From positions 1 through 64,000 of the IMG/VR virus record IMGVR_UViG_3300014838_000019: a DNA stretch of 64,000 bases; one strand, written 5' to 3'. Positions 1 through 12,168 of the stretch are shown piece by piece. Position 1 is the first letter of the stretch. The number at the start of each line of letters is the position of its first letter. The position numbers and the translations under genes were made by a program. Source of the stretch: a virus. The notes beneath the pieces were generated by a model. That model was given only the letters and a program-made list of their open reading frames with translations. It did not search any database and had not been told where the DNA came from.

Positions 1-79
1 ACTGGCTTGACGCAAGTCGGAATGTTGGTTGGAAGTACAACGACCATCTCCATTGTGGGTTCGAATCCCATCACAGTAA
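1..79 (+). ncRNA. Partial tRNA-like RNA (5' end outside window)
   Basis: Clear T-arm GTGGG-TTCGAAT-CCCAT followed by an acceptor-like 3' strand (CACAGTA). Upstream hairpins do not form a canonical anticodon arm. Confidence 0.4.
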
Positions 80-112
80 GAATTGATAGCGTCCATGTAT
101 ATCTCTAATTAT

Positions 113-196
113 GCTGATGTGGTGTAATGGAAGCCACGCAAGTCTCAGAAGCTTGTGCCGAAAGGCGTGGGAGTTCGACTCTCCCCATCAGCACCA
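113..196 (+). tRNA. tRNA-Leu(CAG)
   Basis: Cloverleaf with anticodon arm CAAGT-CTCAGAA-GCTTG, long variable arm, GTTCGA T-loop, encoded CCA. Confidence 0.95.
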
Positions 197-221
197 AATT
201 TAGTCATGGTTCAGCATCTCT

Positions 222-299
222 GCCACGGTGATGCAATTTGGAAGACATTCCTGATTTAGACTCAGGATTTTAGGGGTTCAAGTCCCCTCTGTGGCACCA
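222..299 (+). tRNA. tRNA-Leu(TAG), short variable loop
   Basis: Anticodon arm CCTGA-TTTAGAC-TCAGG, 5-nt variable loop, A73 discriminator, CCA. Confidence 0.9.
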
Positions 300-303
300 A
301 TTT

Positions 304-594
304 ATGAATAAGTTTAAACAAATTTTTGATGATTCGTGGAAAAAATATAACTTACCTCCGAAAAAGGTATTCAAATTTACATGGGAATATTGTCCCTTAT
401 GCGATGCTATGTTTGTGCGCTGCCCTAAATGTGGAAATAATTGTTGTAATGCAACTTTTGGCCGAGTGACAAAACTCGGGTTTCCAACAAAACGGTGGGG
501 GAAAGAAACTAAAGAATGTGATGTGTGTAATTTGGCATATATGTATCAATCGTTGGCCGAACAAACAAATACGGTTCCTAAAAAACCGTTATGA
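304..594 (+). CDS. Hypothetical Cys-rich (zinc-finger) protein
   Basis: Multiple CxxC motifs (CPLC, CPKC, CDVC); starts right after the tRNA. Confidence 0.7.
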   Translation: MNKFKQIFDDSWKKYNLPPKKVFKFTWEYCPLCDAMFVRCPKCGNNCCNATFGRVTKLGFPTKRWGKETKECDVCNLAYMYQSLAEQTNTVPKKPL

Positions 595-884
595 ACATCA
601 ACTCAGTTAACATTGATTTAGACCAAGCGATTGGCGTAGTAACATTTTCAGATAACAGCGTCATACACATCAAAGGTTATTGTCAATGTGTAGCGTTTGG
701 TGAAATCGTATGGAATTATACATATATGAAAGACAAATTGCAACACGAGAAAGACTACGTTGAGTTCTTGGAGAAGCGACTGAAAAGTTCTCATTTTAAG
801 AAGAACGTAAGCCCCGAAGAATTTGAAAAGACCGAGAAAAAGCTTAAGAAAGCCCGACTTGTCTTGAGGGTGTTGGAAAAATAA
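591..884 (+). CDS. Hypothetical protein; C-terminus resembles the ValRS C-terminal tRNA-binding coiled coil
   Basis: ATGA overlap with the previous ORF. LEKRLKSSHFKKNVSPEEFEKTEKKL resembles the ValRS motif xxKLxNxxFxxKAPxEVVEKEREKL. Confidence 0.55.
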   Translation: MNINSVNIDLDQAIGVVTFSDNSVIHIKGYCQCVAFGEIVWNYTYMKDKLQHEKDYVEFLEKRLKSSHFKKNVSPEEFEKTEKKLKKARLVLRVLEK

Positions 885-950
885 TTTGACTTTCATCCGT
901 TATTGTAGTAGGCTACAAACAATCCGTTAAGCCTGTAGGCAGGCAAAAAT

Positions 951-1026
951 GTCGGTGTAGTGAAATGGTTATCACGGAAGCCTTTCAAGCTTTAATAGGC
1001 GAGTTCAATTCTCCCCACCGACACCA
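951..1026 (+). tRNA. tRNA-Glu(TTC)
   Basis: Anticodon arm GAAGC-CTTTCAA-GCTTT, CCA end. Confidence 0.93.
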
Positions 1027-1071
1027 TTATAATAGGACATTGTTTTTAGATATTTTCCCTTATTAATCAAT

Positions 1072-1437
1072 ATGAGAACATGGATAGAGCAAAAACCTAA
1101 AAGTCATAACTGTGGCCCAATTGCTGTCGCCGTTATCGCAGGTGTTACTTTAGAAGAAGCGATAAAAGCAATAGGTAAGAAGGGTTCCACTACAACTAAA
1201 CAATTGGTTTGTGGGTTACGTAAACTTGGATGGAATTGTCCTGACCGATGTAAGAAAATGCCGAAACCACCACTTGGGATTGCACAGTTGAAATCCCCCA
1301 CACGAAAATCGGGATGGCATTGGGTAGTTGTTGATGGAGACAAAATTTACGATGGATGTAACGGGAATCCCGATGGCACTGTCAGATGGATTAATGGAGA
1401 ACGAATCACGTCGTATCTTCCAGTGACAAAGATTTAA
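1072..1437 (+). CDS. C39-like cysteine peptidase domain protein
   Basis: Q-x5-CGP, HWVVV and IYD motifs in the C39 order (Q, C, H, D). Confidence 0.65.
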   Translation: MRTWIEQKPKSHNCGPIAVAVIAGVTLEEAIKAIGKKGSTTTKQLVCGLRKLGWNCPDRCKKMPKPPLGIAQLKSPTRKSGWHWVVVDGDKIYDGCNGNPDGTVRWINGERITSYLPVTKI

Positions 1438-1438
1438 T

Positions 1439-1516
1439 GCGTTAGTAATGGCTCCGGTTTCTACCCGGTACGTGCATAATTGGACAATGAGGGTTCGAGT
1501 CCCTCCTGACGCACCA
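1439..1516 (+). tRNA. Atypical D-armless tRNA-Arg(TCT)-like gene
   Basis: Acceptor GCGTTAG/CTGACGC+ACCA, T-arm GAGGG-TTCGAGT-CCCTC, anticodon arm CCGG-TTTCTAC-CCGG. Only ~8 nt where the D-arm should be and ~20 nt in the variable position. Confidence 0.7.
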
Positions 1517-1626
1517 CTTTTTATCAGAAAATTACTGACCACGGTATCAGTAAGTTTACGGTCGCCAAGAAGAAAGTCATTACTGATGACGAACCTACTT
1601 CCCGACGCAATCGTTAACCAACAAGT

Positions 1627-1702
1627 GGCTTCATGGTGAAATTGGACATCATGGGAATTTCCTAAATTTTCGTTCCGAGTTCAAATCTCGGTGGAGCCAC
1701 CA
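1627..1702 (+). tRNA. tRNA-Arg(CCT)
   Basis: Anticodon loop TTCCTAA, T-loop GTTCAAAT, CCA. Confidence 0.9.
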
Positions 1703-1706
1703 CTTT

Positions 1707-1958
1707 ATGAAATCATTTACAAAAGTTACAGAGACCACCTACACTCCAACATGGATTAAATCTCATTTCATCACTTACGACGAGCATTTTATTCGCATTC
1801 GCCAAAATTTTCCATACAAATGTGACCGCTGTGAAAAATGCGATCACAAATTTCTTCTTGGAGAAAGTATTGGCTTAGCTGCATTTGAGAACATTGGAAA
1901 CCGAGTGTTATGTGAATCCTGTGTCATAGAATTAGAATGTTCACATCAACCGGCATAG
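1707..1958 (+). CDS. Hypothetical zinc-finger protein
   Basis: CDRCEKC and LCESC motifs. Confidence 0.65.
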   Translation: MKSFTKVTETTYTPTWIKSHFITYDEHFIRIRQNFPYKCDRCEKCDHKFLLGESIGLAAFENIGNRVLCESCVIELECSHQPA

Positions 1959-2365
1959 TTCATTACGATGATGACGAAGGACATAGAGTAATTCTCCGAG
2001 TATCTCAAAGCTTGGCGGATTATTATAGGTCATTCATTCCCAAATGTGAAAGAGTCATCAAACCAAGGTGGGCGGCTCATGCAACGGTTATAAGACCGGG
2101 ATTTGAAGTTCCTCCCAAGATTAGTTATTGGGGAGACTACGAGGGAGAGGTAGTAGAATTTCTATATGATTCATATCAGTTGAATGGTTACGGCTATTAC
2201 TGGGTGAACATATGGTCAAAAAGATTGGAAGAAATTCGCACTGAATTGGGGTTGACCAATGTTAGCAAATATGCATTGCGTCCACCGGGATATGATAAGA
2301 CCTTTCATATCACCATCGGTAACTATATAGAAATACTTAGGAATGGGGAGTCTCCCGAAAAATAA
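1937..2365 (+). CDS. 2H phosphoesterase-family protein
   Basis: Two HxT motifs (HATV and HITI) about 75 aa apart. Confidence 0.7.
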   Translation: MFTSTGIVHYDDDEGHRVILRVSQSLADYYRSFIPKCERVIKPRWAAHATVIRPGFEVPPKISYWGDYEGEVVEFLYDSYQLNGYGYYWVNIWSKRLEEIRTELGLTNVSKYALRPPGYDKTFHITIGNYIEILRNGESPEK

Positions 2366-2378
2366 GTGCAGATTTCAT

Positions 2379-2410
2379 TTGACATTTCGTTAAGGTCTGT
2401 TATATTTATA
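2379..2410 (+). promoter_or_regulatory. Composite sigma70-like plus late promoter
   Basis: TTGACA-N16-TATATT with extended TG, overlapping TATTTATA, just before tRNA-Ser. Confidence 0.7.
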
Positions 2411-2418
2411 CTCACAAC

Positions 2419-2510
2419 GGTAGGATGGCAGAGCACGGCTTATCGCACCTGACTTGAAATCAGATGTGGCCTCAAAACCACCGGGGGTTCGAATCCCTCT
2501 CCTACCGCCA
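2419..2510 (+). tRNA. tRNA-Ser(TGA)
   Basis: Anticodon loop CTTGAAA, long variable arm, G73, CCA. Confidence 0.95.
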
Positions 2511-2516
2511 ATTTCT

Positions 2517-2590
2517 GCGGGGTTAATTAATCGGTATAATAATTCGCCTACACCGAATAGTGAGTGGTTCGACTCCACTACCTCGTACCA
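2517..2590 (+). tRNA. tRNA-Val(TAC) with non-canonical C33
   Basis: Anticodon arm ATTCG-CCTACAC-CGAAT, GTTCGA T-loop, ACCA. Confidence 0.85.
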
Positions 2591-2594
2591 TTTT

Positions 2595-2798
2595 ATGTCA
2601 GATGCAGTGACTCAAACGCCCGATTGGTTGGTTGACAGAATGGATAAAATATCCAAACTGCCACCGCCGACGTTGGAAGAAGTGAGGATGCAGTTTGATG
2701 GGTCGAGCAATCAAAAAGAATCTAAGGTTATCATTGTTACACCGACCATGAGTCGAGTGGTTAAATCCGCAGGCAAGAAATTGTGGCAAATTTTATAA
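2595..2798 (+). CDS. Hypothetical protein
   Basis: ATG directly after the tRNA 3' end; the longer computed ORF overlaps tRNAs. Confidence 0.55.
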   Translation: MSDAVTQTPDWLVDRMDKISKLPPPTLEEVRMQFDGSSNQKESKVIIVTPTMSRVVKSAGKKLWQIL

Positions 2799-2836
2799 TG
2801 TGACTTACGAAGATTTCAATATGAAATCTGTTCAAT

Positions 2837-2924
2837 GGAAGGTAAAACAGCCAGGGGTTGTGATTGATTGCTAATCAAATCGTGCCTTAATCGGCATGGG
2901 AATCGTGCTCTCTGCCTTCCGCCA
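2837..2924 (+). tRNA. tRNA-Ser(GCT) with atypical D- and T-loops
   Basis: Acceptor GGAAGGT/GCCTTCC+GCCA, anticodon loop TTGCTAA, long variable arm. T-loop region reads GAATCGTG rather than GTTCGA. Confidence 0.85.
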
Positions 2925-2935
2925 ATTTCGTAATT

Positions 2936-3001
2936 GCGAGTCAATCCTTTAACTCTATACAGTGATTTACGACTGTGAGTGGGGACTAAATAGACCGCCC
3001 A
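2936..3001 (+). ncRNA. Candidate structured RNA ending in CCA
   Basis: Closing stem GCG(A)GTC/GACCGC followed by CCA, with internal hairpin ACAGT...ACTGT. Confidence 0.3.
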
Positions 3002-3007
3002 ATTTAT

Positions 3008-4323
3008 CTTTGTAGGAGCAGAAAACCCATCTCCCTTTAGGGGATGGGATGAATGCGACTCATTGAAAATAATTTAACGTTTTCTGAAAGTGATTGATAT
3101 GTATCTTGTAGAATGTATAACCGAGCATACAAATATCGTTTGATTCCGAATAAAGAACAACAAGTTCTATTGTCCAAACACTTTGGACATTGTAGATTCG
3201 TATATAACCATTTCCTCCAAGTGAAGATTGACCATTACAAGAAAACCAAGAAAACAATCAATTGGCAGGATATGGCAACACAACTTCCAAAATTAAAGAA
3301 TGAATATGAATGGTTAAGTGAGGTTGGCTCACAATCTCTCCAGCAATCTATTCTCAATTTAGATAGAGCATATACATCTTTCTTTCGTAGTGGAACTGGA
3401 TTTCCCAAGTTTAAGTCGAGAAAGTATGCTCGCAAATCATTCATTGTTCCTATTACTAATAACAATATTAAATTGAACTATGAAACGAAACGATTGGTCA
3501 TACCAAAGTTTAGAAATGGTATTAAATGTATCTTTGATAGAGAAGCAGAAGGAACATTAAAGCAAGCAATCATATCACAAGACAGAGATGGAACGTATTA
3601 TGTCTCCATATTGGTTGAAGTGAATAATGATTTTCCAACTAAACCAGAACCAAAGAAGACTAAAGCGATTGGAATGGATTTTGGAGTAAAGACGTTCCTA
3701 ACATTGAATAATGGAGAAAAGATTGAAAATCCAAAAGTGTTGAAACAATCATCTGATAAATTGGGAAAACGCCAGCAAGAACTGGAGACATTAACCAAAG
3801 GTTCCACTGCTCACATTTCCAAGCAAGAGCAGATTACCAAACTCCATAGTAAAATAGCAAGACAGAGAAAAGATTTCTTGGATAAACTCTCACACAAACT
3901 AACCAATGATAACCAAATTGGAACGATTTGTATTGAGGACTTATCCATAAAAAACATGCAGGCAGACAACTACAAAGCAACCAACAATAGAATTGCTGAT
4001 TATGCTTGGGGTAAGTTTGTGAGTATGTTGCAGTATAAGAGTGATTGGTATGGGAAGAACTTCCGAAAGATTGGAAGATTTGACCCGTCCAGTAAAATGT
4101 GTAACGAATGTGGATATGTAAATCATTCTCTAACTTTAAGTGACAGAGAATGGAAGTGTCCAAGTTGTAGCACAAATCACGATAGAGGTGTGAATGCTGC
4201 CAAGAATATCTTGGACTTCTCATTTCCCAAAACAGAGTTTAATAAGGGTAGGAATTACCCTATAGAAACCTTAATGTTAGAGCAACGGGGAAACCCACTT
4301 GCTTTAGCGGGTGGGTAATTCAT
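3008..4323 (+). mobile_element. IS200/IS605-family tnpB-only element (IS1341-like)
   Basis: Subterminal hairpins at the left end (CCCATCTCCCTTTAGGGATGGG) and right end (CCCACTTGCTTTAGCGGGTGGG...TTCAT); TTTAT lies immediately 5'; no tnpA. Confidence 0.75.
3113..4318 (+). CDS. tnpB: TnpB RNA-guided endonuclease; RuvC-III Asp appears mutated to Gly
   Basis: N-terminal AYKYRLIP...FGHCRFVYN, RuvC-I GMDFG, RuvC-II IEDL, CxxC/CxxC zinc ribbon, HDRGVNAAKNI where HDRDxNAAxNI is expected. Confidence 0.93.
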   Translation: MYNRAYKYRLIPNKEQQVLLSKHFGHCRFVYNHFLQVKIDHYKKTKKTINWQDMATQLPKLKNEYEWLSEVGSQSLQQSILNLDRAYTSFFRSGTGFPKFKSRKYARKSFIVPITNNNIKLNYETKRLVIPKFRNGIKCIFDREAEGTLKQAIISQDRDGTYYVSILVEVNNDFPTKPEPKKTKAIGMDFGVKTFLTLNNGEKIENPKVLKQSSDKLGKRQQELETLTKGSTAHISKQEQITKLHSKIARQRKDFLDKLSHKLTNDNQIGTICIEDLSIKNMQADNYKATNNRIADYAWGKFVSMLQYKSDWYGKNFRKIGRFDPSSKMCNECGYVNHSLTLSDREWKCPSCSTNHDRGVNAAKNILDFSFPKTEFNKGRNYPIETLMLEQRGNPLALAGG

Positions 4324-4533
4324 ATGATATGTTTTCTTTGTTCGTGTGAAGAATTCAACGTGAAGATGGATGCTGTAGTTATTCAGGAATATAAAGGGAT
4401 GACCCTCGAAGTTCCAAGTCCAACTATGGTTTGCAAAAAGTGCGGGTGGGAAACCCTCGCCCGTGGTCAAGTGGATGCCTTATTTGTTGCTACTAAAAAG
4501 TGTTATGAAGAAAAAGTTTCCGAAGTTTCCTGA
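4324..4533 (+). CDS. Stand-alone YgiT/MqsA-type zinc-finger protein
   Basis: MxCxxC...YKGMTLEV...CKKCG followed by a helix, matching the MqsA N-terminal layout; no HTH domain. Confidence 0.7.
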   Translation: MICFLCSCEEFNVKMDAVVIQEYKGMTLEVPSPTMVCKKCGWETLARGQVDALFVATKKCYEEKVSEVS

Positions 4534-4846
4534 CTCTGTAATCATACTCAAACAGTATTTAACGTACATGGATTATGCAGCTACGGGTGAAGGTAGGACG
4601 TTTGAACTTAATATTTGTTTTGCCGAGACTCAAGCTGAGGCAAAAGCAAAACATTTGAAAAGATTTTATCCTACAGATGACGCAGCCCGAACATACTACG
4701 GTGTAGCTGTTGAGGTGGTTCCATTTAAAAGTAAAAGAGCCAAGGACATTATTACACATATATTCAAGTTGGGCGAGGGATTACACGAAGATTTACTTAA
4801 ATATGGAATTGATTTCTATTTCAAGTATTATGTTAATGCAAGTTAA
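4505..4846 (+). CDS. Hypothetical protein
   Basis: ORF from the in-frame ATG at 4505. Confidence 0.65.
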   Translation: MKKKFPKFPDSVIILKQYLTYMDYAATGEGRTFELNICFAETQAEAKAKHLKRFYPTDDAARTYYGVAVEVVPFKSKRAKDIITHIFKLGEGLHEDLLKYGIDFYFKYYVNAS

Positions 4847-4956
4847 TATATAAAATAAGGTCAGAGACATTCTTTAATGTTTTTTACTCGCAGCCTTATG
4901 GCTTACGAGATTGCTTCGGGGTCAGTGAGCAGGATTAATCACGGACTCAATAATTT

Positions 4957-5322
4957 ATGAAAACGAAAAATGCAGTTGTAGTATCAATCGTCGGCGCAAT
5001 AGTCGCCTTAACATTAACAGGTTGTGTCGCAACATGGACACCAGGAGGCGTAGTTGTTAGTGGACCACCACCATTGGTGATCGAACCTCCAATTGTAGAA
5101 GTCTCTCCAGTCGGAGTTGCAGTCGGTGTTCCAGATGAATATACTTGGGATGGATACGAATATGTGGGAATCGTAGGTGGGCAATATGTTTACCTTGGAC
5201 CCGTTGGCGTTTGGGGTGTCTGTGAACCTTGGCGTTTAGACCGCTTTCATGGATGGGAACGTGGTCATAGTGATTGGCGTAGCCATGCTTTTCATGGACG
5301 TGGAGGGCATGGTCGTCGTTAA
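4957..5322 (+). CDS. Putative lipoprotein
   Basis: Signal peptide with lipobox LTGC, Pro-rich segment, W/G-rich core, His/Gly/Arg tail. Confidence 0.75.
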   Translation: MKTKNAVVVSIVGAIVALTLTGCVATWTPGGVVVSGPPPLVIEPPIVEVSPVGVAVGVPDEYTWDGYEYVGIVGGQYVYLGPVGVWGVCEPWRLDRFHGWERGHSDWRSHAFHGRGGHGRR

Positions 5323-5327
5323 TTCCT

Positions 5328-5528
5328 ATGGAATACATCAACGAAGCAAATTCATTCCTCGACGCTCTGTATAAGAGCGTTGGGGCTTCTACCGCAGAGC
5401 AAAAGTATAATACACTAATTCTTAGGCTCGGGTACGAAAACGAGTTTATTGGGTTCAGTCATATTCCAACATGGCAACAAAAGCAGAGAATGATGGAATA
5501 TGAACTTTTGGATCGTCAAGGCGCATGA
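5328..5528 (+). CDS. Hypothetical protein
   Basis: Tightly packed ORF in an operon. Confidence 0.6.
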   Translation: MEYINEANSFLDALYKSVGASTAEQKYNTLILRLGYENEFIGFSHIPTWQQKQRMMEYELLDRQGA

Positions 5529-5833
5529 GAAAATGGCTCCAAACTATTGCTGCGTGTATTGCGTTGATACTTATAGTTGGATGTGTTCCAATACACGTCA
5601 ATGGTACAACGCATTATCTAGTGGTGGGCATTGGAGTAATAAGTGTAAATAACACTAATCAAGCCTTGGCACAAGTGACTAAAGCAACAATCCTTGGGGG
5701 ATATGCATCGGAACAGGGTGGAGGTATTGGATTTAGTTCGGTTAAGAAAGTAATGATCGCTACAAACGTCAATATGGTTATTGACGTGAGTAATGCCCCA
5801 TTCAAACCTTTAAATGTGGAAGTTCAAAAATGA
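5525..5833 (+). CDS. Putative lipoprotein
   Basis: Hydrophobic leader with IVGC lipobox; ATGA overlaps. Confidence 0.7.
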   Translation: MRKWLQTIAACIALILIVGCVPIHVNGTTHYLVVGIGVISVNNTNQALAQVTKATILGGYASEQGGGIGFSSVKKVMIATNVNMVIDVSNAPFKPLNVEVQK

Positions 5834-6252
5834 AAAATAAAATTATAAGCTTTATTAGCATGGGTCTGTTGGCAGTTTTGATGATGGGATGTAAAATTCA
5901 ACCAAATTACATTATTATATCATCCGCCACCACGGTTGGGTTTGATGTATCTGAATCAACCGTATCACAAACCCCGCAAGCCACCTTGGCATATAAACGA
6001 GGCGAGTTAGTGATTGTGCCGATTCCTACGAATGGACCTGTTCCCGATGTCATTATGGATTTCAGTTTCAAGACTTCAATATTTACTTCATCGGGTGGAA
6101 TTTATTCTCGAATTGCAACGGGTCCACATGCGACCACAAGTGCCGCTTCGGCATTGATGATGTCTAAGGATAAAAACGGAAACCTTTTTACGAATTTACC
6201 TAGTGTTTTGCCTTCGATCACCACTTTCCTAACTCCTAAATCAACAAAATAA
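5830..6252 (+). CDS. Putative lipoprotein
   Basis: Leader with MMGC lipobox. Confidence 0.7.
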   Translation: MKNKIISFISMGLLAVLMMGCKIQPNYIIISSATTVGFDVSESTVSQTPQATLAYKRGELVIVPIPTNGPVPDVIMDFSFKTSIFTSSGGIYSRIATGPHATTSAASALMMSKDKNGNLFTNLPSVLPSITTFLTPKSTK

Positions 6253-6254
6253 GT

Positions 6255-6506
6255 ATGACGAAATTAAATAGTTATTGTAAACACCTCAAACCAGGTAAGA
6301 TATATCTTGCCGAAAAAGTTGCAGCGGAAAAGATAAAAATAGCTCGCCAAGCCGTGGTTGATCGTGCTGAAAAGGATGCTGAATTTGCCGCAGATGTTTT
6401 GAAAGCTATTGGTGACAAGTTGAGTCCCGAGGCTAGAAACATATGTGAAAAGAGCGTTGCAACCGACAAGGCAAAAAAACTTCAATCTGGATTTGTGGAT
6501 TTGTGA
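6255..6506 (+). CDS. Hypothetical protein
   Basis: Operon-packed ORF. Confidence 0.6.
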   Translation: MTKLNSYCKHLKPGKIYLAEKVAAEKIKIARQAVVDRAEKDAEFAADVLKAIGDKLSPEARNICEKSVATDKAKKLQSGFVDL

Positions 6507-6530
6507 ATTTTGATTGATAGTTATTAATAT

Positions 6531-6607
6531 CGGAGCGTAGGATAATTGGCTATTCCGCATGTTTTGGGTACATGATATTGCGAGTTCAAGTCTCGCCGCT
6601 CCGACCA
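6531..6607 (+). tRNA. tRNA-Pro(TGG)
   Basis: CGGAGCG acceptor, anticodon arm CATGT-TTTGGGT-ACATG, CCA. Confidence 0.95.
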
Positions 6608-6620
6608 TCTTCTAAAAGTT

Positions 6621-6944
6621 ATGAGTAACAACATTTATCCCGTATCAACAGGTCAAAAACCTCCATTCTACGTAGAGTTTAATCGTGGTGGAATGGGCGG
6701 AGAATTCACTCTGTTTCGTCGTAACTTCATGTATTCACCAAGCGAGTTAGCAGAAATGGAAAAGAAATCTCCTGAACACGCCCCCATGTTAAAACTGTGC
6801 AATGAAGTTCACCCTTGGAATCTATTCACGGCTGAGTATGGTAAGGATGGATCAGTTCCCGACCGCAAGTGGATTGAATGGATGGTAGATGCTTTAAACT
6901 CAAAGGCGGAACAGGAAGAAATGGGAAGTGAATATTTCTCTTGA
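6621..6944 (+). CDS. Hypothetical protein
   Basis: 107-aa ORF. Confidence 0.65.
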   Translation: MSNNIYPVSTGQKPPFYVEFNRGGMGGEFTLFRRNFMYSPSELAEMEKKSPEHAPMLKLCNEVHPWNLFTAEYGKDGSVPDRKWIEWMVDALNSKAEQEEMGSEYFS

Positions 6945-6977
6945 CCCTTAACTTATTTTCCGATACAATTTAGACCT

Positions 6978-7343
6978 ATGACAAAACCTGAAAAAATCAA
7001 AGCTATTCTAGCACGTCTCAAAAAGGAAAACGCTGACATTGCGGAGGCTCATATCTCGGCTATGGTCATTACTGGTTATTTAGATGATCTCGCTCAGGCG
7101 GGGATCATCGAAAGCGCATTCGCTATGACCCCCGTTGGTCGCTCAGTAAGGTCTATTTGCGAAGAGTTTGATTGGAAACCGACTGATGAAGACCTAATTG
7201 CATTTGTAAGCAATATGGTCGGTCCTGAAGAACGTGTTGGGTTCTTGTTTATGCTGAAAAAGTATCGGGATGATCGAACTGGGCTTCTGACAGAATTTAA
7301 GGCTATGATGGATAAACAAACTCCTCCCGACGAAGCAACGTAA
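6978..7343 (+). CDS. Hypothetical protein
   Basis: 121-aa ORF preceded by a TTGACC...TACAAT promoter-like sequence. Confidence 0.7.
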   Translation: MTKPEKIKAILARLKKENADIAEAHISAMVITGYLDDLAQAGIIESAFAMTPVGRSVRSICEEFDWKPTDEDLIAFVSNMVGPEERVGFLFMLKKYRDDRTGLLTEFKAMMDKQTPPDEAT

Positions 7344-7375
7344 GGTTTGGTAATTCGTTTAATATTTATAGTAAA

Positions 7376-7460
7376 GCCGCTGTGGTGTAACTGGAAGCCA
7401 CACAAGTTTGAGAGACTTGTGCCGTAAGGCGTGGAGGTTCAAATCCTCTCAGCGGCACCA
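7376..7460 (+). tRNA. tRNA-Leu(GAG)
   Basis: Anticodon arm CAAGT-TTGAGAG-ACTTG, long variable arm, CCA; close paralog of tRNA-Leu(CAG). Confidence 0.95.
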
Positions 7461-7467
7461 TTTTATC

Positions 7468-7785
7468 ATGAAAAACATTGAAGGTCTCGTCGTATCCGCC
7501 AAGTTGTTCTGCGTATTTGCTGGAACTAGCTTGCTCACTCTCCAAACTGGATTAGGTAGTTTAGCTCAATCAGATAAACCCGCCACCAATATCCAGTGGG
7601 CAATGGTTGTCGGTGGAAGTCTCGGTACGGGGCTTACGGCGGCTGGGGCTTTCTTGTCAAATGCGTTTGGAAACTACATGAATAACGTTAATATCAATGG
7701 AAATCCAATCACTTCTCAGACGGGAAGTATAAATCCTCTATTGACAGAAGTCAAAAAGGATGCTACAGTAAAGCCAGTTCTTTGA
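7468..7785 (+). CDS. Small membrane protein (2 TM; holin-like topology possible)
   Basis: ATG after the tRNA; two hydrophobic segments. Confidence 0.55.
   Translation: MKNIEGLVVSAKLFCVFAGTSLLTLQTGLGSLAQSDKPATNIQWAMVVGGSLGTGLTAAGAFLSNAFGNYMNNVNINGNPITSQTGSINPLLTEVKKDATVKPVL
7741..7769 (+). promoter_or_regulatory. sigma70-type promoter for the RNase P RNA
   Basis: TTGACA-N17-TACAGT with extended TG, ~20 nt upstream of P1. Confidence 0.7.
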
Positions 7786-7788
7786 GAT

Positions 7789-8135
7789 TTTGTCGTAAGC
7801 GACTCTACGCTGGGGAGAAATCCTTAGAGGAAGTTCGCCGCTGCACAGCAGATGATTGGGAGAATTTGGTTACAATAGGATTGGTCAAGTCGTGAAGTCC
7901 GAAAATCAATCAGCAGAACCTTAATCACAACTGATTGACCCTTGCAACCATTTCGTTATTACCACAAATTAGCAGCAATCCTAAATAGGTCAAGTCTAGT
8001 GCTGGACGTTACTAAGACCGAGGTTGGAGCAGTCTCCTTTAACGGGGGACCAGTTGAAAGACTGAGAAAAATGTAGAGATAGACCATAACGGCGGCTAAA
8101 ACATGAGCTATAAACTCATGGGTGCGAACGACAAT
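7789..8135 (+). ncRNA. rnpB: RNase P RNA (type-A-like catalytic domain, divergent S-domain)
   Basis: P1 TGTCGT/ACGACA; P2 CTCTAC(7803)/GTAGAG(8073); P3 GAAA hairpin; P4 GAGGAAGTTCGCCG(7827)/AACGGCGGCTA(8088) with bulged U; P5 CTGC/GCAG+CAA; P6 CAGC/GCTG; P15 with L15 GGT; P16 GGTC/GACC; AGAAAAATG at J18/2. Confidence 0.87.
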
Positions 8136-8216
8136 TTTTAAAAGTATGGGGAACGTCGAAAGACGCACTAGTCTCCATCAATATGTCATCTAAAAAATGA
8201 TGATGACAAAATTTAT

Positions 8217-8278
8217 GCCCGTGGTCGGATTGGGTTGCTGCGATACCACCGACATATTTGAGCAGAACATGGGCATCA
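8217..8278 (+). ncRNA. Candidate tRNA-like mini RNA
   Basis: 7-bp acceptor-like stem GCCCGTG/CATGGGC + ATCA, enclosing a GTCGG...CCGAC hairpin; no D- or T-arm. Confidence 0.4.
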
Positions 8279-8282
8279 TTAT

Positions 8283-8360
8283 GGGGCCGTAGCACAATTG
8301 GTAGTGCAGCACGTTCGCAACGTGAAGGTTTTGGGCGTTCAACTCGCCTCGGCTCCACCA
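8283..8360 (+). tRNA. tRNA-Ala(CGC)
   Basis: GGGGCCG acceptor with G3:U70, anticodon loop TTCGCAA, CCA. Confidence 0.93.
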
Positions 8361-8367
8361 TCATAAC

Positions 8368-8410
8368 AAAAAGAGAGGCGACTGAAAAGTCGCCTCTCTC
8401 TTTTTTTTTT
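8368..8410. terminator. Bidirectional intrinsic terminator
   Basis: A-tract + GAGAGGCGACT-GAAA-AGTCGCCTCTC + T-tract, between convergent transcription units. Confidence 0.9.
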
Positions 8411-8419
8411 AGTTATACC

Positions 8420-8638
8420 TTATGCGATACAACTAATTGGTGCGGGGTTTGACCCGACGTGAATGTCACGGTTTCCATGTAGAACTCCAAATACATTAAG
8501 CAACCATAGTATGATGGCTATGACTGCTACAACGTTAATGATTTTCTTGATGGCATCCGGCATTGGGATGTACATGTTGACGAGCCATAGGAGAACTCCT
8601 ATGATTGCCAACGTTACGATGATTGCTATGAGGGACAT
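8420..8638 (-). CDS. Small two-TM membrane protein (Thivi_2564-like family)
   Basis: GVLLWLVNMYIPMPDAIKKIINVV...LWLL pattern typical of this family. Confidence 0.75.
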   Translation of the reverse strand: MSLIAIIVTLAIIGVLLWLVNMYIPMPDAIKKIINVVAVIAIILWLLNVFGVLHGNRDIHVGSNPAPISCIA

Positions 8639-8744
8639 ATATTTCCTTTTGTTATTTGATGTGTTCCAAACGCCATATAATTACCCCTATCATACCACTC
8701 GCTAAGATTAGAGTAAAGAATAGCATATGATTCCATTTTGGTTC

Positions 8745-9137
8745 TTAGTCTCGTGGGGCACCGGCAGACAATCCAAGGTTGGTTGTTGTTCGATCTTGTG
8801 ATTTGTCAGGTAGTGTTTGAACCACATTGACACTAATTTGGTTATAGATGAATCCATCGGCGTTAACTGTTGCAGATTGATGCAAATCTATATTGACCCA
8901 TTTACGTGCGGTTTTTAGATTCATATCCGTATCTGCTCCAACCAAGAATACCGTTACTCCCGGCGTGGAAGATGCAGTTATGATTGCGGTCATTCCATCA
9001 ACTGATGGTTTGATTGTAGATTCTCCACTGATAACTTTCCAAGTAATCGTCTTTACACGACCTACTTTTCCAGAAAAACTCTGTGGATTCATCGTCAACG
9101 TAATCGTTTGATTTACTGTTAGTGTTAGATTTATCAT
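8745..9137 (-). CDS. Ig-like beta-sandwich hypothetical protein
   Basis: Alternating hydrophobic beta-strands, Thr/Val-rich. Confidence 0.6.
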   Translation of the reverse strand: MINLTLTVNQTITLTMNPQSFSGKVGRVKTITWKVISGESTIKPSVDGMTAIITASSTPGVTVFLVGADTDMNLKTARKWVNIDLHQSATVNADGFIYNQISVNVVQTLPDKSQDRTTTNLGLSAGAPRD

Positions 9138-9214
9138 ATAGTTTCCTATTTTATTTGAATTAAAATTGATATTCTCGTGAAATATTTCTATTTCACGAGA
9201 ACATTTGTTACGCT

Positions 9215-10180
9215 TTATCGGCGATTAGATTTATTAAACTGACGAGCCAAAGATGCCGAAGCATTTTGGACGACTGTATAAGTTGCAACTACAGTTCCAT
9301 TCAAGATAACATTCTCAACCACTTGGTTATTGAATGAACCCGTGAATCCACCAACGTAAGTTCCACTGATGGAGTTTCCGTTAATTGAACCCGTGAATGC
9401 TCCACTACCAATACCGTTCATGCTTGCGCTGACGACCGTTGCGGTCGAACTAGACAAGTCGGTGATTGTTCCAGTGTAAGTTCCAACATAGGAACCACTC
9501 AATGGACCTTGGGTAGAACCGCTATATGATCCACTGTATGATCCGCTATTTGAACCACTGATTGATCCACTGTATGATCCACTATTTGAACCGCTTGAAT
9601 TTGCTGATGCATATGCATCGAGGGCGTCAAGTTTAGCTGCTATGGTGCTGGCTCGTGCTGAGAGAGCATCAAGCAATGCTTGGTCACTTTGAGTGAATAC
9701 AGAACCCGAAGAGTTCTGAAGGGAGTTGATTGTAGTTACGAGGTAACTTACGTCACCTTGTAAATCTGTCACCGCAATGTCCATACGGTCATTGAATGCG
9801 TTCTGCGTTGTTGCGAAGTTTGATACTTGGCTCATAATTTTTTCCTCTGTTTGTTTCAAGTCGAGTTTACTCACGAATTCATGGGACTTGAACCATTCCA
9901 ATTCGTTTTTGGTTTGTTTTTCAAGATTTTCTAGTTCTTGAAAAATTCTTTGAAAGAGATGATATGTGGGATGATTATCCACATGATGTTCTCTTAATTC
10001 CGTAGGACTGATGCGTGTGACTACAGCATTACTAGCTGTGGGTGCATGAGGTACGGATTCTGTCGTTGTAAATTGTGTTTCTCCGGTGAATGTCGAAATT
10101 CTATTCACTGGGTCACTTAAAAGTATAGTTGGCGATACTGCCGACTGTGTAATGGGATAGTGACGATGAAAATAGTTCAT
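9215..10180 (-). CDS. Hypothetical protein with coiled coil and SGSY/SGSN repeats
   Basis: 321-aa ORF; central helical segment followed by (SGSx)n repeats. Confidence 0.7.
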   Translation of the reverse strand: MNYFHRHYPITQSAVSPTILLSDPVNRISTFTGETQFTTTESVPHAPTASNAVVTRISPTELREHHVDNHPTYHLFQRIFQELENLEKQTKNELEWFKSHEFVSKLDLKQTEEKIMSQVSNFATTQNAFNDRMDIAVTDLQGDVSYLVTTINSLQNSSGSVFTQSDQALLDALSARASTIAAKLDALDAYASANSSGSNSGSYSGSISGSNSGSYSGSYSGSTQGPLSGSYVGTYTGTITDLSSSTATVVSASMNGIGSGAFTGSINGNSISGTYVGGFTGSFNNQVVENVILNGTVVATYTVVQNASASLARQFNKSNRR

Positions 10181-10467
10181 ATTTTACCTTATGGTTATTC
10201 GTGGATGTAAATTCTACGCACGAGTTTATACGTGATTGTATAGTTAACGGGATATTGAACGGGAAGATAAACAAACTGTCATCCGATGGAATGGGTCTAT
10301 AGGACGGACACCTTTTTGAGGTATGAGAACTTGGAAGTTATTCCATCTCGACTTGCTTATACATATTGGAACGAATAATTAATATCGATTATATCGCAAT
10401 ATATATTTTATAATATTGCTGTAAATTTATCACTTGACTTCTTCTTGAGATGTGATATTATGATGGC

Positions 10468-10638
10468 ATGATTTGCGTCATTTGTAAAAAATGTAAAAAA
10501 GAATTGACACTCCCCGGCGGTTTATTATTTTCTCCTCCGATTGGGGGGCAAGTGAACAAATATCATTTGTGCCTCAGTTGTTACGTGTCTTTAATTCAAT
10601 GGCTTAACACTCCATTATCGAAAAATAAAAAGTTATGA
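10468..10638 (+). CDS. Small zinc-finger protein (not in ORF track)
   Basis: MICVICKKCKKEL...HLCLSCY; 56 aa, ATGA-coupled to the next gene, TTGACT promoter upstream. Confidence 0.6.
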   Translation: MICVICKKCKKELTLPGGLLFSPPIGGQVNKYHLCLSCYVSLIQWLNTPLSKNKKL

Positions 10639-11138
10639 TCCTAACAGACTACAGAATTGGCGTATTCAACTCCCATTGGTGGAAGGACGTTTGGTATAAT
10701 CAAGTAGCGTCTAGGTGGAACCCTCGTAATAAATGGCTTACCAAGAAGATTCCTCGCACTTGGATGGACAAAGATCATATTATTGAAATCTGTGTCCTAG
10801 AATCACTCAAACATTATATTGAGGGAGAAGAAGCTTTGGGCAAGGATATGTGTCATTTTCAATCGAGTCAGGATGACCCGTCATTTCCCGGATGGAAAAA
10901 GGAATCAGATCGAGAAGTGAAGAAGCAGTATGAATTAGTAACGATCAAGTTGGACTCTCTCGAAAAGCAACTGAAAATAGAATGGAATAATGTTCCGACT
11001 CGGAATTGGCGAGATGTTACTAAGCTTGACTACGAGCAGACTTATGGCAAGATTGATCGGTTGGAGAAAGAAATATACGATTTGCAGACTGAGATAATGG
11101 TTTGGGTCGTAAAGAATCGCAATATACTTTGGACATGA
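10635..11138 (+). CDS. Hypothetical phage protein
   Basis: 167 aa, Trp-rich N-terminus, coiled-coil C-terminus. Confidence 0.7.
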   Translation: MILTDYRIGVFNSHWWKDVWYNQVASRWNPRNKWLTKKIPRTWMDKDHIIEICVLESLKHYIEGEEALGKDMCHFQSSQDDPSFPGWKKESDREVKKQYELVTIKLDSLEKQLKIEWNNVPTRNWRDVTKLDYEQTYGKIDRLEKEIYDLQTEIMVWVVKNRNILWT

Positions 11139-11139
11139 T

Positions 11140-11517
11140 ATGAAAGTTACAATTCCCGCAAGAACAGAAGAAATCACACGATGTTATCATTCGTGCCCAT
11201 ATTTTGGGCTTGATGGTGGTCCTAGTTCCGTAATGTATTGTAAGCATCCATATTGGGATGACAAGGGAAGTTATGCTGGATTTATTATTTCTCACCCCGA
11301 ATGCGATGACGGATTCCCATCACTGTGCCCATTGTATAAAGAAAATGGAATGTCACCACCACCGAAAGAGCAACCGATAAAGGAAAAATCATATTTGACT
11401 GATGAAGAACGAGCCAAGTTTTCTGTCGGTGAGGCATTGAATGTTGAGTATCAGCGACGTTTCGATGAAGTGCTTCTCAATGCACTTTTGAAAATTCCAA
11501 TTGATAATAAATTATGA
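11140..11517 (+). CDS. Hypothetical Cys-containing protein
   Basis: CxxCPY...C...CPL pattern. Confidence 0.65.
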   Translation: MKVTIPARTEEITRCYHSCPYFGLDGGPSSVMYCKHPYWDDKGSYAGFIISHPECDDGFPSLCPLYKENGMSPPPKEQPIKEKSYLTDEERAKFSVGEALNVEYQRRFDEVLLNALLKIPIDNKL

Positions 11518-11972: not shown

Positions 11973-11992
11973 AATATAAATAATCATGGGAC

Positions 11993-12024
11993 TTGACATT
12001 TTCGACTTCCCGTGCTATATTTAT
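11993..12024 (+). promoter_or_regulatory. Composite sigma70-like plus late promoter
   Basis: TTGACA-N17-TATATT(TAT) with extended TG. Confidence 0.75.
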
Positions 12025-12035
12025 GCGTAAGATTT

Positions 12036-12168
12036 GAGATGCACACAGCGACAAAAAATCTATGAGCCGAAAGACTCACCATGAGTCATCCTCTCCCTCG
12101 CAAAAAAGAGAGGCGGAAGAATAACCGTGCTGTTTTTATAGTGCAGCGTAAAATTGGGCATCTCGCAA
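12036..12168 (+). ncRNA. Candidate multi-hairpin RNA closed by an acceptor-like stem
   Basis: GAGATGC/GCATCTC 7-bp stem + GCAA; internal hairpins TGAGCCGAAAGACTCA, CCTCTC..GAGAGG, GCTG..CAGC; directly after a promoter. Confidence 0.5.

What the first reader, a model, noticed from the sequence alone, without database searches (positions are those of the whole stretch)
1439..1516. D-armless tRNA-Arg(TCT)-like gene with the missing length moved to the variable position
Seen: it has a 7-bp acceptor stem, ACCA, a canonical T-arm and a TCT anticodon hairpin, but only TAATGGCT lies between acceptor and anticodon stems. A ~20-nt variable segment (GTGCATAATTGGAC) can form an imperfect hairpin with a D-loop-like AATTGG. 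Total length (78 nt) is normal for a tRNA. Known: D-armless tRNAs are characteristic of animal mitochondria, not bacteria. Inference: this is a rearranged tRNA topology or a decoy for anticodon nucleases.
Basis: partly seen in the sequence, partly recalled or inferred. Interest (0 to 1): 0.72.

Follow-up and report, generated by a model that had tools for sequence, protein, structure and literature searches.

The report
Phage arginine tRNA with permuted D-arm
This 78-base gene in a large phage's tRNA cluster is very probably a working arginine tRNA (anticodon UCU) that has every standard tRNA part, but one D-stem strand and the D-loop sit after the anticodon arm; hundreds of phages share this non-cloverleaf layout, gene finders miss it, and I found no paper describing it.

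Summary
At 1439-1516(+) there is a 7-bp acceptor stem, an encoded ACCA, a canonical T-arm and a UCU anticodon hairpin. Only 8 nt separate the acceptor and anticodon stems, and about 20 nt follow the anticodon arm.

The RNA is not D-armless. The 5' connector (1448-1452) pairs with 1472-1477 around the anticodon arm, rebuilding a D-stem. A D-loop (AAUUGGA, with G18 G19 A20) follows and runs straight into the T-stem.

Family evidence:
- I collected 112 distinct relatives from phage contigs and cultured phages, including Felix O1-like, rV5-like, crAss-like, Agrobacterium and Stenotrophomonas phages.
- In two sets (45 and 49 sequences), the two central pairs of the rebuilt stem are Watson-Crick in every sequence, with three or four pair types.
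- All 65 members with arginine anticodons have A20, the ArgRS identity base. The isoleucine-type members have U20 and A73.
- The genes sit in tRNA arrays and rarely duplicate an anticodon already present there.
- ARAGORN called 3 of 124.
- No copy was found in 5,426 E. coli genomes.

Best reading: a functional phage tRNA-Arg(UCU) with a permuted core (about 0.8). Expression and charging are not shown. This scan has noted the same family before on other DNA. I found it in no paper.

The parts
1439..1445 (+). Acceptor stem, 5' strand (GCGUUAG), tRNA positions 1-7
   Evidence: Pairs with 1506-1512 (7 bp, one U.G). All 7 pairs covary in the family, with 97.8% of cells paired.
1446..1447 (+). Invariant UA connector. 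U is read as U8, the partner of A14. A is read as the equivalent of A21, because it directly precedes the strand that plays positions 22-25.
   Evidence: Invariant in all 45 aligned Arg members and in all 49 members of the second set. The assignment to tertiary roles is inference from canonical tRNA geometry.
1448..1452 (+). Rebuilt D-stem, 5'-located strand (AUGGC). It plays the role of canonical positions 22-25 plus 26.
   Evidence: A1448-U1477, U1449-A1476 and G1450-C1475 pair directly. With G1474 bulged, G1451.U1473 and C1452-G1472 also pair. Family columns 11-42 and 12-41 are Watson-Crick in 45 of 45 sequences, with 4 pair types each. RNAalifold predicts the helix on its own. In the closest subfamily, G.U changes to G-C at 1451/1473, and C-G changes to U-A at 1452/1472 in L110.
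1453..1469 (+). Anticodon arm: stem UCCGG/CCGGU (U.U plus 4 Watson-Crick pairs) and loop UUUCUAC. U33 is at 1459, anticodon UCU at 1460-1462, A37 at 1463.
   Evidence: Sequence. The four stem pairs covary, with 98.3% of cells paired. U33, C35 and A37 are invariant.
1470..1471 (+). Short linker (AC) between the anticodon stem and the 3'-located D-stem strand. It corresponds to the 4-5-nt (U/A)GAAA-type linker of most relatives.
   Evidence: Alignment A1. Some relatives carry a hairpin insertion here, for example L114, as a variable region would.
1472..1477 (+). Rebuilt D-stem, 3'-located strand (GUGCAU, with G1474 bulged). It plays the role of canonical positions 10-13.
   Evidence: See 1448-1452. 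The last U (1477) is invariant and lies opposite U, A or G, like the often non-Watson-Crick 13-22 pair.
1478..1488 (+). Relocated D-loop and joiner AAUUGGACAAU. Read as A14 A15 U16 U17 G18 G19 A20 C, then A, A, and U as the position-48 equivalent just before the T-stem.
   Evidence: AAUUGGA and the final AU are invariant or nearly so in 45 sequences. A after GG occurs in 65 of 65 Arg-type members and U in 46 of 47 non-Arg members. The tertiary roles (U8-A14, A15-U48, G18-psi55, G19-C56) are inferred.
1489..1505 (+). T-arm: stem GAGGG/CCCUC, loop UUCGAGU
   Evidence: Canonical T-loop consensus. Stem 98.2% paired, with 3 covarying pairs.
1506..1512 (+). Acceptor stem, 3' strand (CUGACGC)
   Evidence: Pairs with 1439-1445.
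1513..1516 (+). Discriminator A73 and encoded CCA
   Evidence: Sequence. All 15 ARAGORN-called tRNAs of the window also encode CCA: ARAGORN ends are 3 nt beyond the Rfam ends.

Best explanation
The element is a gene for a functional elongator tRNA-Arg(UCU) that reads AGA. It belongs to a large phage-borne family with a permuted tRNA core.

Compared with the cloverleaf, the block made of D-stem strand 10-13 plus the D-loop (14-20) has moved from before the anticodon arm to between the variable linker and the T-stem.

The resulting order is:
1. acceptor 5' strand
2. U8
3. A (equivalent to A21)
4. strand '22-25'
5. '26'
6. anticodon arm
7. short linker
8. strand '10-13'
9. D-loop (A14 A15 U U G18 G19 A20 ...)
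10. U48
11. T-arm
12. acceptor 3' strand
13. A73
14. CCA

The D-stem still forms, now as a helix that encloses the anticodon arm and can stack on it as in a normal tRNA. The relocated D-loop can still reach the T-loop to form the elbow. All nucleotides that make the canonical tertiary contacts are present, so an L-shape with different strand connectivity is expected.

Shown here: the sequence features, family conservation, covariation of the helix, coupling of identity bases to the anticodon, and the genomic setting in tRNA arrays.

Inferred: the three-dimensional fold; processing by RNase P and 3' trimming to the encoded CCA; charging by the host ArgRS through A20, C35 and U36; and decoding of AGA, which makes up 23% of Arg codons in this phage's long ORFs.
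For: Anatomy at 1439-1516. Rfam tRNA 30.9 bits with the D-arm deleted. Family model R1 75.1 bits.

Relatives:
- Pattern scans of viral contigs gave 3, then 103, then at least 119 loci.
- 112 distinct permuted sequences were parsed.
- One query matched 265 cultured-phage records, including Felixounavirus, Vequintavirinae, PBECO4-like jumbo phages, and Klebsiella and Salmonella phages.
- Further matches: Alishewanella, Stenotrophomonas and Agrobacterium phages, Vibrio, Streptomyces and Microbacterium phages, and crAss-like phages.

The helix:
- On a MAFFT alignment not fitted to any structure, pairs 11-42 and 12-41 are Watson-Crick in 45 of 45 sequences, with 4 pair types each. Pair 13-40 holds in 35 of 45.
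- The whole structure is 92.8% paired, against 60% after shuffling and 40-49% when the partners are slid.
- This repeats in a second set of 49 mostly Ile-type sequences, aligned to R1 and so leaning towards the structure. Both central pairs are 49 of 49 Watson-Crick.
- RNAalifold predicts the same helix unaided.

Signs of aminoacylation and decoding:
- Every Arg-anticodon member (UCU, CCU, ACG, UCG, GCG) has A20: 65 of 65.
- Ile, Met and Val-type members have U20 in 46 of 47.
- A73 is present in all 44 Ile members.
- The 10 members found only by the model obey the same rule.
- Some contigs carry two or three permuted Arg isoacceptors, and others carry permuted Arg and Ile genes together.
- Only 6 of 124 members share an anticodon with a canonical tRNA in the same locus, and 84 of 124 lie among 3 or more canonical tRNAs.

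This window:
- Its tRNA set has a canonical Arg(CCU) 110 nt downstream but no other Arg(UCU). The remaining 12 kb of the record has no tRNA.
- AGA is 7.6 per 1000 codons.

Restriction to phages:
- 13 hits in 185,579 prokaryote species genomes, 12 of them family members, all on metagenome-assembled genome (MAG) contigs.
- None in 5,426 complete E. coli genomes.
Against: There is no direct evidence of a mature, charged RNA. The only RNA-library signal is one 203-nt metatranscriptome contig, 100% identical, covering 1261-1463. It could be precursor RNA or contaminating DNA.

For this single sequence, nearest-neighbour thermodynamics prefers the local hairpin: -25.1 against -21.6 kcal/mol, with pair probabilities for the long-range helix below 0.01. 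The fold z-score is only -1.74.

In this member the rebuilt stem has only 3 uninterrupted Watson-Crick pairs, then a G.G mismatch or a bulged G. The anticodon stem closes with U.U.

Within the window's small subfamily, the sequences also permit the local hairpin, although 3 of 6 break its U-A pair.

The L-shaped fold and the tertiary contacts are argued from canonical tRNA geometry, not modelled.
Confidence: 0.8

Rival explanations
1. It is a tRNA-like decoy or other non-decoding RNA. It keeps the acceptor/T domain and an Arg anticodon loop to soak up or divert a host anticodon nuclease or another tRNA-binding defence protein, but it is not used by the ribosome.
For: The architecture departs from what the translation machinery normally sees. 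Phage tRNAs are known to counter tRNA-cleaving defences: Azam et al. 2024, PMC11555353, listed, and the Septu/tRNA-Tyr work, PMC13096335, listed. I read only the abstracts. A neighbouring ORF (1937-2365) has a sub-threshold match to a 2H phosphoesterase domain.
Against: A decoy for an anticodon nuclease needs only the anticodon stem-loop. Here A20 tracks Arg anticodons in 65 of 65 members, and U20 and A73 track Ile. Discriminator and CCA are kept. Whole isoacceptor sets exist in this layout, and they complement rather than duplicate the canonical tRNAs beside them. The two roles are not exclusive: a working tRNA can also resist or absorb a nuclease.
Confidence: 0.1
2. It is a truly D-armless tRNA. 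The 5' connector is single-stranded, and the 20-nt segment after the anticodon arm folds on itself into a variable-arm-like hairpin (G1472-C1485, U1473-A1484, C1475-G1482, A1476-U1481).
For: This is the minimum-free-energy fold of the window sequence (-25.1 kcal/mol), with pair probabilities of 0.91-0.98. The window's five closest relatives could form most of it.
Against: Across 45 relatives these pairs are formed in 41% of cells, and only one of the four shows even a single double-sided change. The rival long-range helix is fully conserved and covaries. The hairpin would bury G18 and U17 of the invariant D-loop motif. In 3 of the 6 subfamily members, U1473 is C. That breaks the hairpin pair but improves the long-range pair with G1451.
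Confidence: 0.07
3. It is a decayed tRNA pseudogene or an assembly or rearrangement artefact with no function.
For: ARAGORN does not call it and the Rfam score is marginal.
Against: The same layout recurs in well over a hundred independent contigs and in hundreds of finished genomes of cultured phages. There are compensatory changes in all four helices, and the tertiary-contact bases are invariant. Near-identical DNA of this region is held by peat, permafrost and freshwater metagenome runs from 14 studies.
Confidence: 0.02

Closest known systems
Canonical class I bacterial and phage tRNA-Arg (Rfam RF00005), such as the tRNA-Arg(CCU) gene 110 nt downstream at window 1627-1702
   Same: 7-bp acceptor stem, 5-bp T-stem with a T-psi-C-type loop, 7-nt anticodon loop with U33 and A37, U8, A14, A15, G18, G19, A20, discriminator and CCA. 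Even the D-loop sequence AAUUGGACA is shared with the neighbouring canonical gene. It has the same length and sits in the same kind of tRNA array.
   Different: The order of the parts. The D-stem is not a hairpin closed by the D-loop. It is a helix that encloses the anticodon arm, and the D-loop joins it to the T-stem. There is no position-9 equivalent and no separate variable loop leading into the T-stem. The secondary structure is a three-way junction, not a four-way cloverleaf.
D-arm-lacking mitochondrial tRNAs, such as metazoan mt tRNA-Ser(AGY/UCU) (reviewed in PMC7609411 and PMC4013460)
   Same: No hairpin between the acceptor and anticodon stems. Three helices leave the central junction. 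The anticodon UCU occurs in some.
   Different: According to PMC7609411, the mitochondrial examples lack the D-arm, have short T-arms and gain flexibility from this. Here a D-stem equivalent, the GG motif and a full canonical T-arm are all retained and total length is normal. The hosts are phages of bacteria.
Permuted tRNA genes of the red alga Cyanidioschyzon merolae (from my own knowledge: Soma et al. 2007, not read here)
   Same: The order of tRNA segments in the gene differs from the cloverleaf order.
   Different: There the gene is circularly permuted, with the 3' half upstream of the 5' half, and processing restores a normal mature tRNA. Here the 5' and 3' acceptor strands are at the gene's ends with CCA encoded. 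No simple processing could restore the canonical order, so the mature RNA itself would be permuted.
allo-tRNAs and (8/4) or (9/3) tRNAs (Mukai et al. 2017, PMC5389517)
   Same: Non-canonical tRNAs found in metagenomes and phage tRNA clusters. UAU and Arg anticodons are common among them.
   Different: allo-tRNAs change the acceptor/T split (8/4 or 9/3) and keep a D stem-loop and a long variable arm. The present family keeps 7/5 and rewires the D-arm.
Candidate structured RNA DNAVirus_2961 of Fremin et al. 2023 (PMC10690425)
   Same: A covarying RNA motif from IMG/VR that 'only sometimes' overlaps ARAGORN tRNA-Arg calls and is suggested to be tRNA-like. It could be this family.
   Different: Identity could not be checked: no sequence or supplement is held. 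The paper gives no topology or function.

Membership tests
Canonical cloverleaf tRNA (Rfam RF00005) | 7-bp acceptor stem, discriminator, and a 3' CCA (encoded or added) | tested here: met
   1439-1445 pairs with 1506-1512; A1513; CCA 1514-1516.
Canonical cloverleaf tRNA (Rfam RF00005) | T-arm: 5-bp stem and a 7-nt loop with the GTTCRANY consensus | tested here: met
   GAGGG UUCGAGU CCCUC at 1489-1505, aligned without gaps to the model.
Canonical cloverleaf tRNA (Rfam RF00005) | Anticodon arm with a 7-nt loop, U33 and purine 37 | tested here: met
   Loop UUUCUAC. The stem has 4 Watson-Crick pairs plus U.U.
Canonical cloverleaf tRNA (Rfam RF00005) | D-arm hairpin between positions 9 and 26 | tested here: not met
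   Infernal deletes 15 model positions there; only 4 nt are present. ARAGORN makes no call.
Canonical cloverleaf tRNA (Rfam RF00005) | Score at or above the curated gathering threshold | tested here: met
   30.9 bits against 29, which is marginal.
Permuted-core phage tRNA family (defined here by model R1; not a published family) | Long-range 3-5-bp helix between the 5' connector and the segment 3' of the anticodon arm, enclosing that arm | tested here: met
   1448-1450 pairs with 1475-1477, extended to 1451-1452 with 1472-1473 around a bulged G. The family pairs are 45 of 45 and 49 of 49 Watson-Crick and covary.
Permuted-core phage tRNA family (defined here by model R1; not a published family) | D-loop motif AAYUGGN directly after that helix, followed by AU and the T-stem; UA after the acceptor stem | tested here: met
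   UA at 1446-1447; AAUUGGACAAU at 1478-1488. R1 score 75.1 bits.
tRNA-Arg identity set for bacterial ArgRS (A20, C35, U36 or G36; established for E. coli, from my own knowledge and the review PMC9976931 listed, not read) | A20 in the D-loop | tested here: met
   A1484 follows G18 G19. A at this place occurs in 65 of 65 Arg-type members and in none of 47 non-Arg members. Whether it occupies the spatial position of A20 is inferred.
tRNA-Arg identity set for bacterial ArgRS (A20, C35, U36 or G36; established for E. coli, from my own knowledge and the review PMC9976931 listed, not read) | C35 and U36 or G36 | tested here: met
   Anticodon UCU at 1460-1462.
tRNA-Arg identity set for bacterial ArgRS (A20, C35, U36 or G36; established for E. 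coli, from my own knowledge and the review PMC9976931 listed, not read) | Aminoacylation with arginine | not testable with these tools
   Needs an in vitro charging assay or acid-gel Northern blot.
D-arm-lacking mitochondrial-type tRNA | No D-stem equivalent and no D-loop/T-loop elbow elements | tested here: not met
   A covarying D-stem equivalent, an invariant GG motif and a full T-loop are present.
Circularly permuted tRNA gene (Cyanidioschyzon type) | 3' half encoded upstream of the 5' half, with termini inside the gene | tested here: not met
   The acceptor 5' and 3' strands lie at the two ends of the gene, followed by CCA.

The most novel reading that the evidence does not exclude
The permuted core is an adaptation in the contest over tRNAs between phages and hosts, not a neutral oddity. 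By changing backbone connectivity in the D-arm and variable-loop region while keeping the surfaces read by ArgRS or IleRS, EF-Tu and the ribosome, these tRNAs would escape host defence nucleases or toxins that recognise or cut that region of canonical tRNAs. Alternatively, they would escape a phage-encoded activity that depletes host tRNAs. This would be a naturally 'orthogonal' tRNA scaffold that arose once and spread through phages for the rare-codon decoders Arg(AGA/AGG/CGN) and Ile(AUA/AUY).
Probability: 0.2. Interest if true: 0.95.

Novelty: new variant of a known kind. Interest (0 to 1): 0.85.

Why it matters
The cloverleaf order of tRNA segments is treated as universal outside reduced mitochondrial tRNAs. 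A large, conserved family has the same parts joined in a different order. If these RNAs are charged and used, synthetases, EF-Tu, RNase P, modification enzymes and the ribosome read the three-dimensional shape of a tRNA, not its chain connectivity. It would be a natural test of that idea.

There are practical consequences:
- Phage tRNA censuses and codon-usage arguments undercount Arg and Ile decoders. ARAGORN called 3 of 124 members. GenBank records label them as nothing, 'hypothetical protein', 'tRNA-OTHER', 'tRNA-Ser' or 'tRNA-Phe'.
- The scaffold could serve as an orthogonal tRNA chassis.
- The family occurs in easily grown E. coli, Salmonella and Klebsiella phages, so the questions are directly testable.

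Tried and rejected
- Megablast of window 1-6000 against named phages found nothing. The phage itself has no close cultured relative.
- The pseudogene or artefact reading was rejected on conservation.
- The circularly permuted gene reading was rejected because the acceptor strands are at the gene's ends.
- Expression: six metatranscriptome runs hold small parts of window 1000-2600, and four were laid. Only one contig touches the gene (1261-1463). Contigs cannot show ends, strand or level, so this neither proves nor disproves expression.
- Literature: eight full-text searches and three papers read in part gave no description of this layout. The supplement that might identify Fremin et al.'s csRNA DNAVirus_2961 is not held. 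Subscription journals are not covered, so prior description cannot be excluded.
- Tertiary pairs (U8-A14, A15-U48, G18/G19 with the T-loop) cannot be tested by covariation because the bases are invariant.
- The neighbouring ORFs 1072-1437 and 1707-1958 have no Pfam match.
- I did not build a three-dimensional model. No tool for that was at hand.

Full report
**What is there**

Window 1439-1516 (+) reads, in tRNA terms:
- acceptor 5' strand GCGUUAG
- UA
- AUGGC
- anticodon stem-loop UCCGG-UUUCUAC-CCGGU, with UCU at 1460-1462
- AC
- GUGCAU
- AAUUGGACAAU
- T-arm GAGGG-UUCGAGU-CCCUC
- acceptor 3' strand CUGACGC
- A
- CCA

Rfam's tRNA model matches 1439-1513 at 30.9 bits, just over its gathering score of 29. 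It does so by deleting the whole D-arm and inserting 16 nt in the variable region. ARAGORN finds 15 other tRNAs in the first 15 kb of the window but not this one.

The window is the first 64 kb of a 75.8-kb IMG/VR virus record that CheckV rates 21% complete. It encodes a large terminase, a portal, a baseplate wedge protein and an SbcC-like nuclease. It is therefore a fragment of a large tailed phage. The DNA recurs in peat, permafrost and freshwater metagenomes.

**Relatives**

A pattern requiring the UCU loop, the AAUUGGAC motif and the T-loop found 3 viral contigs. Dropping the anticodon requirement gave 103 loci. About half of these have the same odd layout, and every one of those carries an arginine anticodon.

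Aligning them showed what the single sequence hides. The three or four bases after the invariant 'UA' are complementary to the three or four bases just before 'AAUUGG', and the two sides change together: CCC/GGG, GCC/GGC, CGG/CCG, CAC/GUG, CGC/GCG, CUC/GAG, CUG/CAG, CGA/UCG.

On a MAFFT alignment of 45 distinct sequences, not fitted to any structure:
- Pairs 11-42 and 12-41 are Watson-Crick in 45 of 45 sequences, with four pair types each.
- Pair 13-40 holds in 35 of 45.
- The outermost position is mostly U opposite U.
- The whole four-helix structure is 92.8% paired, against 60% after shuffling and 40-49% when the 3' partners are slid by one to three columns.

RNAalifold predicts the same helix by itself.

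**A second, parallel set**

A covariance model of the 45 sequences (R1) found further members with divergent D-loops. Two of them had non-arginine anticodons and U instead of A after the GG.

About 50 distinct sequences have the same permuted layout, with anticodons UAU or GAU (Ile), plus a few CAU and one UAC.

In this set the two central helix pairs are again Watson-Crick in 49 of 49 sequences, with three and four pair types. That alignment is fitted to the model and so leans towards the structure.

**How I read the architecture**

In a normal tRNA the strand 22-25 runs from the core down to position 26 and into the anticodon stem. The strand 10-13 runs back up and continues into the D-loop (A14, R15, ... 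G18, G19, N20).

Here the strand right after 'UA' leads through one base into the anticodon stem, so it takes the place of 22-25 and 26. The strand after the anticodon arm is followed directly by A A U U G G A, so it takes the place of 10-13 followed by A14 A15 U16 U17 G18 G19 A20.

The layout is therefore what one gets by cutting block 10-20 out of a cloverleaf and pasting it between the variable linker and position 48.

The invariant bases are the ones that make the canonical tertiary contacts:
- U8, the first base after the acceptor stem
- an A that precedes '22', as A21 does
- A14 and A15
- G18 and G19
- a U just before the T-stem that could pair with A15, as U48 does
- G53, T54, psi55, C56, A58 and C61 in the T-arm

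Helix lengths match the canonical ones: 7 + 5 for the acceptor and T-stems, and 5 + about 4 for the anticodon and D-stems.

This is inference from established tRNA geometry. I did not model it.

In the window's own subfamily (window, L054, L047, L099, L105, L110) the helix is AUGGC/G-U-(G)-C-A-U with one bulged G. Within that subfamily, G.U alternates with G-C at one pair, and C-G becomes U-A at the next in L110.

**Why I think it is a working tRNA and not a decoy or a relic**

1. Identity bases follow the anticodon. All 65 distinct members with Arg anticodons (UCU, CCU, ACG, UCG, GCG) have A at the position-20 equivalent, which is the main ArgRS determinant in E. coli (established knowledge). 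Forty-six of 47 Ile, Met or Val-type members have U there. All 44 Ile-type members have A73, while the Arg-type discriminator varies. The search patterns fixed this base but left the anticodon free. The ten members found only by the model obey the same rule.
2. Contigs carry sets. Three permuted Arg isoacceptors (UCU, CCU, ACG) lie within about 360 nt of each other in L037. Permuted Arg and Ile genes lie side by side in L151 and L178.
3. They complement the canonical tRNAs around them. Only 6 of 124 members share an anticodon with an ARAGORN-called tRNA in the same locus. 84 of 124 lie in loci with at least three canonical tRNAs, often only 2-10 nt from the next gene.
4. In this window, the permuted Arg(UCU) and a canonical Arg(CCU) 110 nt downstream together cover AGA and AGG. 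No other Arg(UCU) exists in the 75.8-kb record. AGA is 23% of Arg codons in the long ORFs.
5. All four helices show compensatory change, which a pseudogene would not keep.

**Distribution**

The family is a phage trait.
- One E. coli-phage member used as a query matches 265 records of cultured phages: Felix O1-like, rV5-like, PBECO4-like jumbo, Klebsiella, Salmonella, Proteus, Serratia and others.
- Other members match Vibrio, Streptomyces and Microbacterium phages, Alishewanella, Stenotrophomonas and Agrobacterium phages, and crAss-like phages.
- Where these records annotate the site at all, they call it 'tRNA-OTHER', 'tRNA-Ser', 'tRNA-Phe' or 'hypothetical protein'.
- A strict pattern found only 13 places in one genome each of 185,579 prokaryote species. 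All 12 family members among them lie on MAG contigs.
- None was found in 5,426 complete E. coli genomes.

**What is not shown**

Expression, processing and charging are not shown. Four peat metatranscriptome runs were laid on 1000-2600. One 203-nt contig, 100% identical, covers 1261-1463. It runs from the upstream ORF into the gene and stops in the anticodon loop. Other contigs cover neighbouring tRNAs and an ORF. Contigs from RNA libraries cannot prove transcription or ends, so I count this as weak.

For this sequence alone, nearest-neighbour energies favour the local hairpin (-25.1 kcal/mol) over the long-range helix (-21.6), with negligible pair probability for the latter. That is the main argument against my structure for this particular member. 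I outweigh it with the family evidence and with the three subfamily members that break the hairpin while improving the long-range pair.

**Comparison with what is known**

- It works like a canonical class I tRNA-Arg but fails one defining feature of the cloverleaf, the D hairpin.
- It is not like the D-armless mitochondrial tRNAs, which lack the D-arm (PMC7609411).
- It is not a circularly permuted gene of the Cyanidioschyzon kind, because the acceptor strands are at the gene's ends.
- It is not an allo-tRNA, which keeps a D stem-loop and alters the acceptor/T split (PMC5389517).
- Fremin et al. 2023 list a covarying viral RNA that sometimes overlaps ARAGORN tRNA-Arg calls (PMC10690425). That may be the same family, but no sequence is available to check, and no topology is described.
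- Eight full-text searches found no description. The library lacks most subscription journals, so this is absence of evidence only.

**Earlier notes of this scan**

After reaching the above, I looked at earlier notes. The same family has been reported many times on other DNA, as 'phage arginine/isoleucine tRNA with permuted core', with the same reading and the same negative literature result. These are AI notes and not independent evidence. They agree with what I derived here.

**Verdict**

The element is most likely a functional phage tRNA-Arg(UCU) with a permuted D-arm (confidence 0.8). It is a new variant of a known kind. Interest is high because it contradicts the assumed universality of tRNA segment order and is testable in standard E. 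coli phages.

Noticed in passing
L124, L128, L130, L137, L139, L141, L143, L157, L193, L194 and others (for example L124 around 9480-9570, + strand): About 19 viral contigs carry an ~88-nt tRNA-like gene with a UAU anticodon. It has a normal D-arm (GUUU-AAUGGUA-AAAC) and also a ~22-nt variable region containing GAUAAUUGGUU, which resembles the relocated D-loop of the permuted family. It could be an intermediate form, or just a class-II-like variable arm. The sequences are too alike to test by covariation.
   Followed up: partly
L114:4767-4854 (-) and L119:2951-3039 (-): Two permuted Arg members from MAG contigs carry an extra small hairpin. In L114 it sits in the linker after the anticodon arm (CUC-GUAAA-GAG). 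In L119 it sits between the D-loop and the T-stem (GUCC-GCAA-GGAU). This suggests both joiners point outwards and tolerate insertions.
   Followed up: no
window 3113-4318 (+): A 401-aa TnpB-type protein (IS605 OrfB, HTH and Cas12f1-like TNB domains, E 1e-23) sits inside the phage's tRNA array.
   Followed up: no
window 1937-2365 (+): A 142-aa ORF 240 nt downstream of the two Arg tRNA genes has a sub-threshold match to the 2H phosphoesterase 'Swiss Army Knife' domain (20.8 bits against a cut-off of 27) and a clear match to phrog_12204, of unknown function. A 2H enzyme next to tRNAs would hint at RNA-end repair, but the match is too weak to claim.
   Followed up: partly
window 1627-1702 and 13376-13453 (+): The whole-window Rfam scan at gathering threshold missed two tRNAs that ARAGORN calls, Arg(CCU) and Met(CAU). 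The first scores 51.6 bits when only 381 bases are searched, so its loss was a filter effect. The Met gene was not rechecked.
   Followed up: partly
window 1261-1463: A 203-nt contig from a peat metatranscriptome library, identical to the window, runs from the upstream ORF into the permuted tRNA gene and ends at A37 of the anticodon loop. This could be chance assembly, or a reverse-transcription stop at a modified base.
   Followed up: no
L054:88-163 (+) and L070:3784-3858 (-): ARAGORN calls tRNAs with anticodon CUA ('tRNA-Pyl', that is, amber-reading) in two of the phage tRNA arrays that also hold permuted Arg tRNAs. These are possible stop-codon suppressors.
   Followed up: no
L105:1495-1573 (Alishewanella phage vB_AspM_Slicko01, OQ508956.1 17417-17495): The GenBank record annotates the permuted Arg(UCU) gene as 'tRNA-Ser', with the same boundaries. 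Other records use 'tRNA-OTHER', 'tRNA-Phe' or 'hypothetical protein' for family members.
   Followed up: yes
window 1-14878: An earlier first-reader note on this window claims a divergent RNase P RNA and other elbow-deviant tRNAs in the same array. Rfam at gathering threshold reported no RNase P family in the window. I did not examine this further.
   Followed up: no
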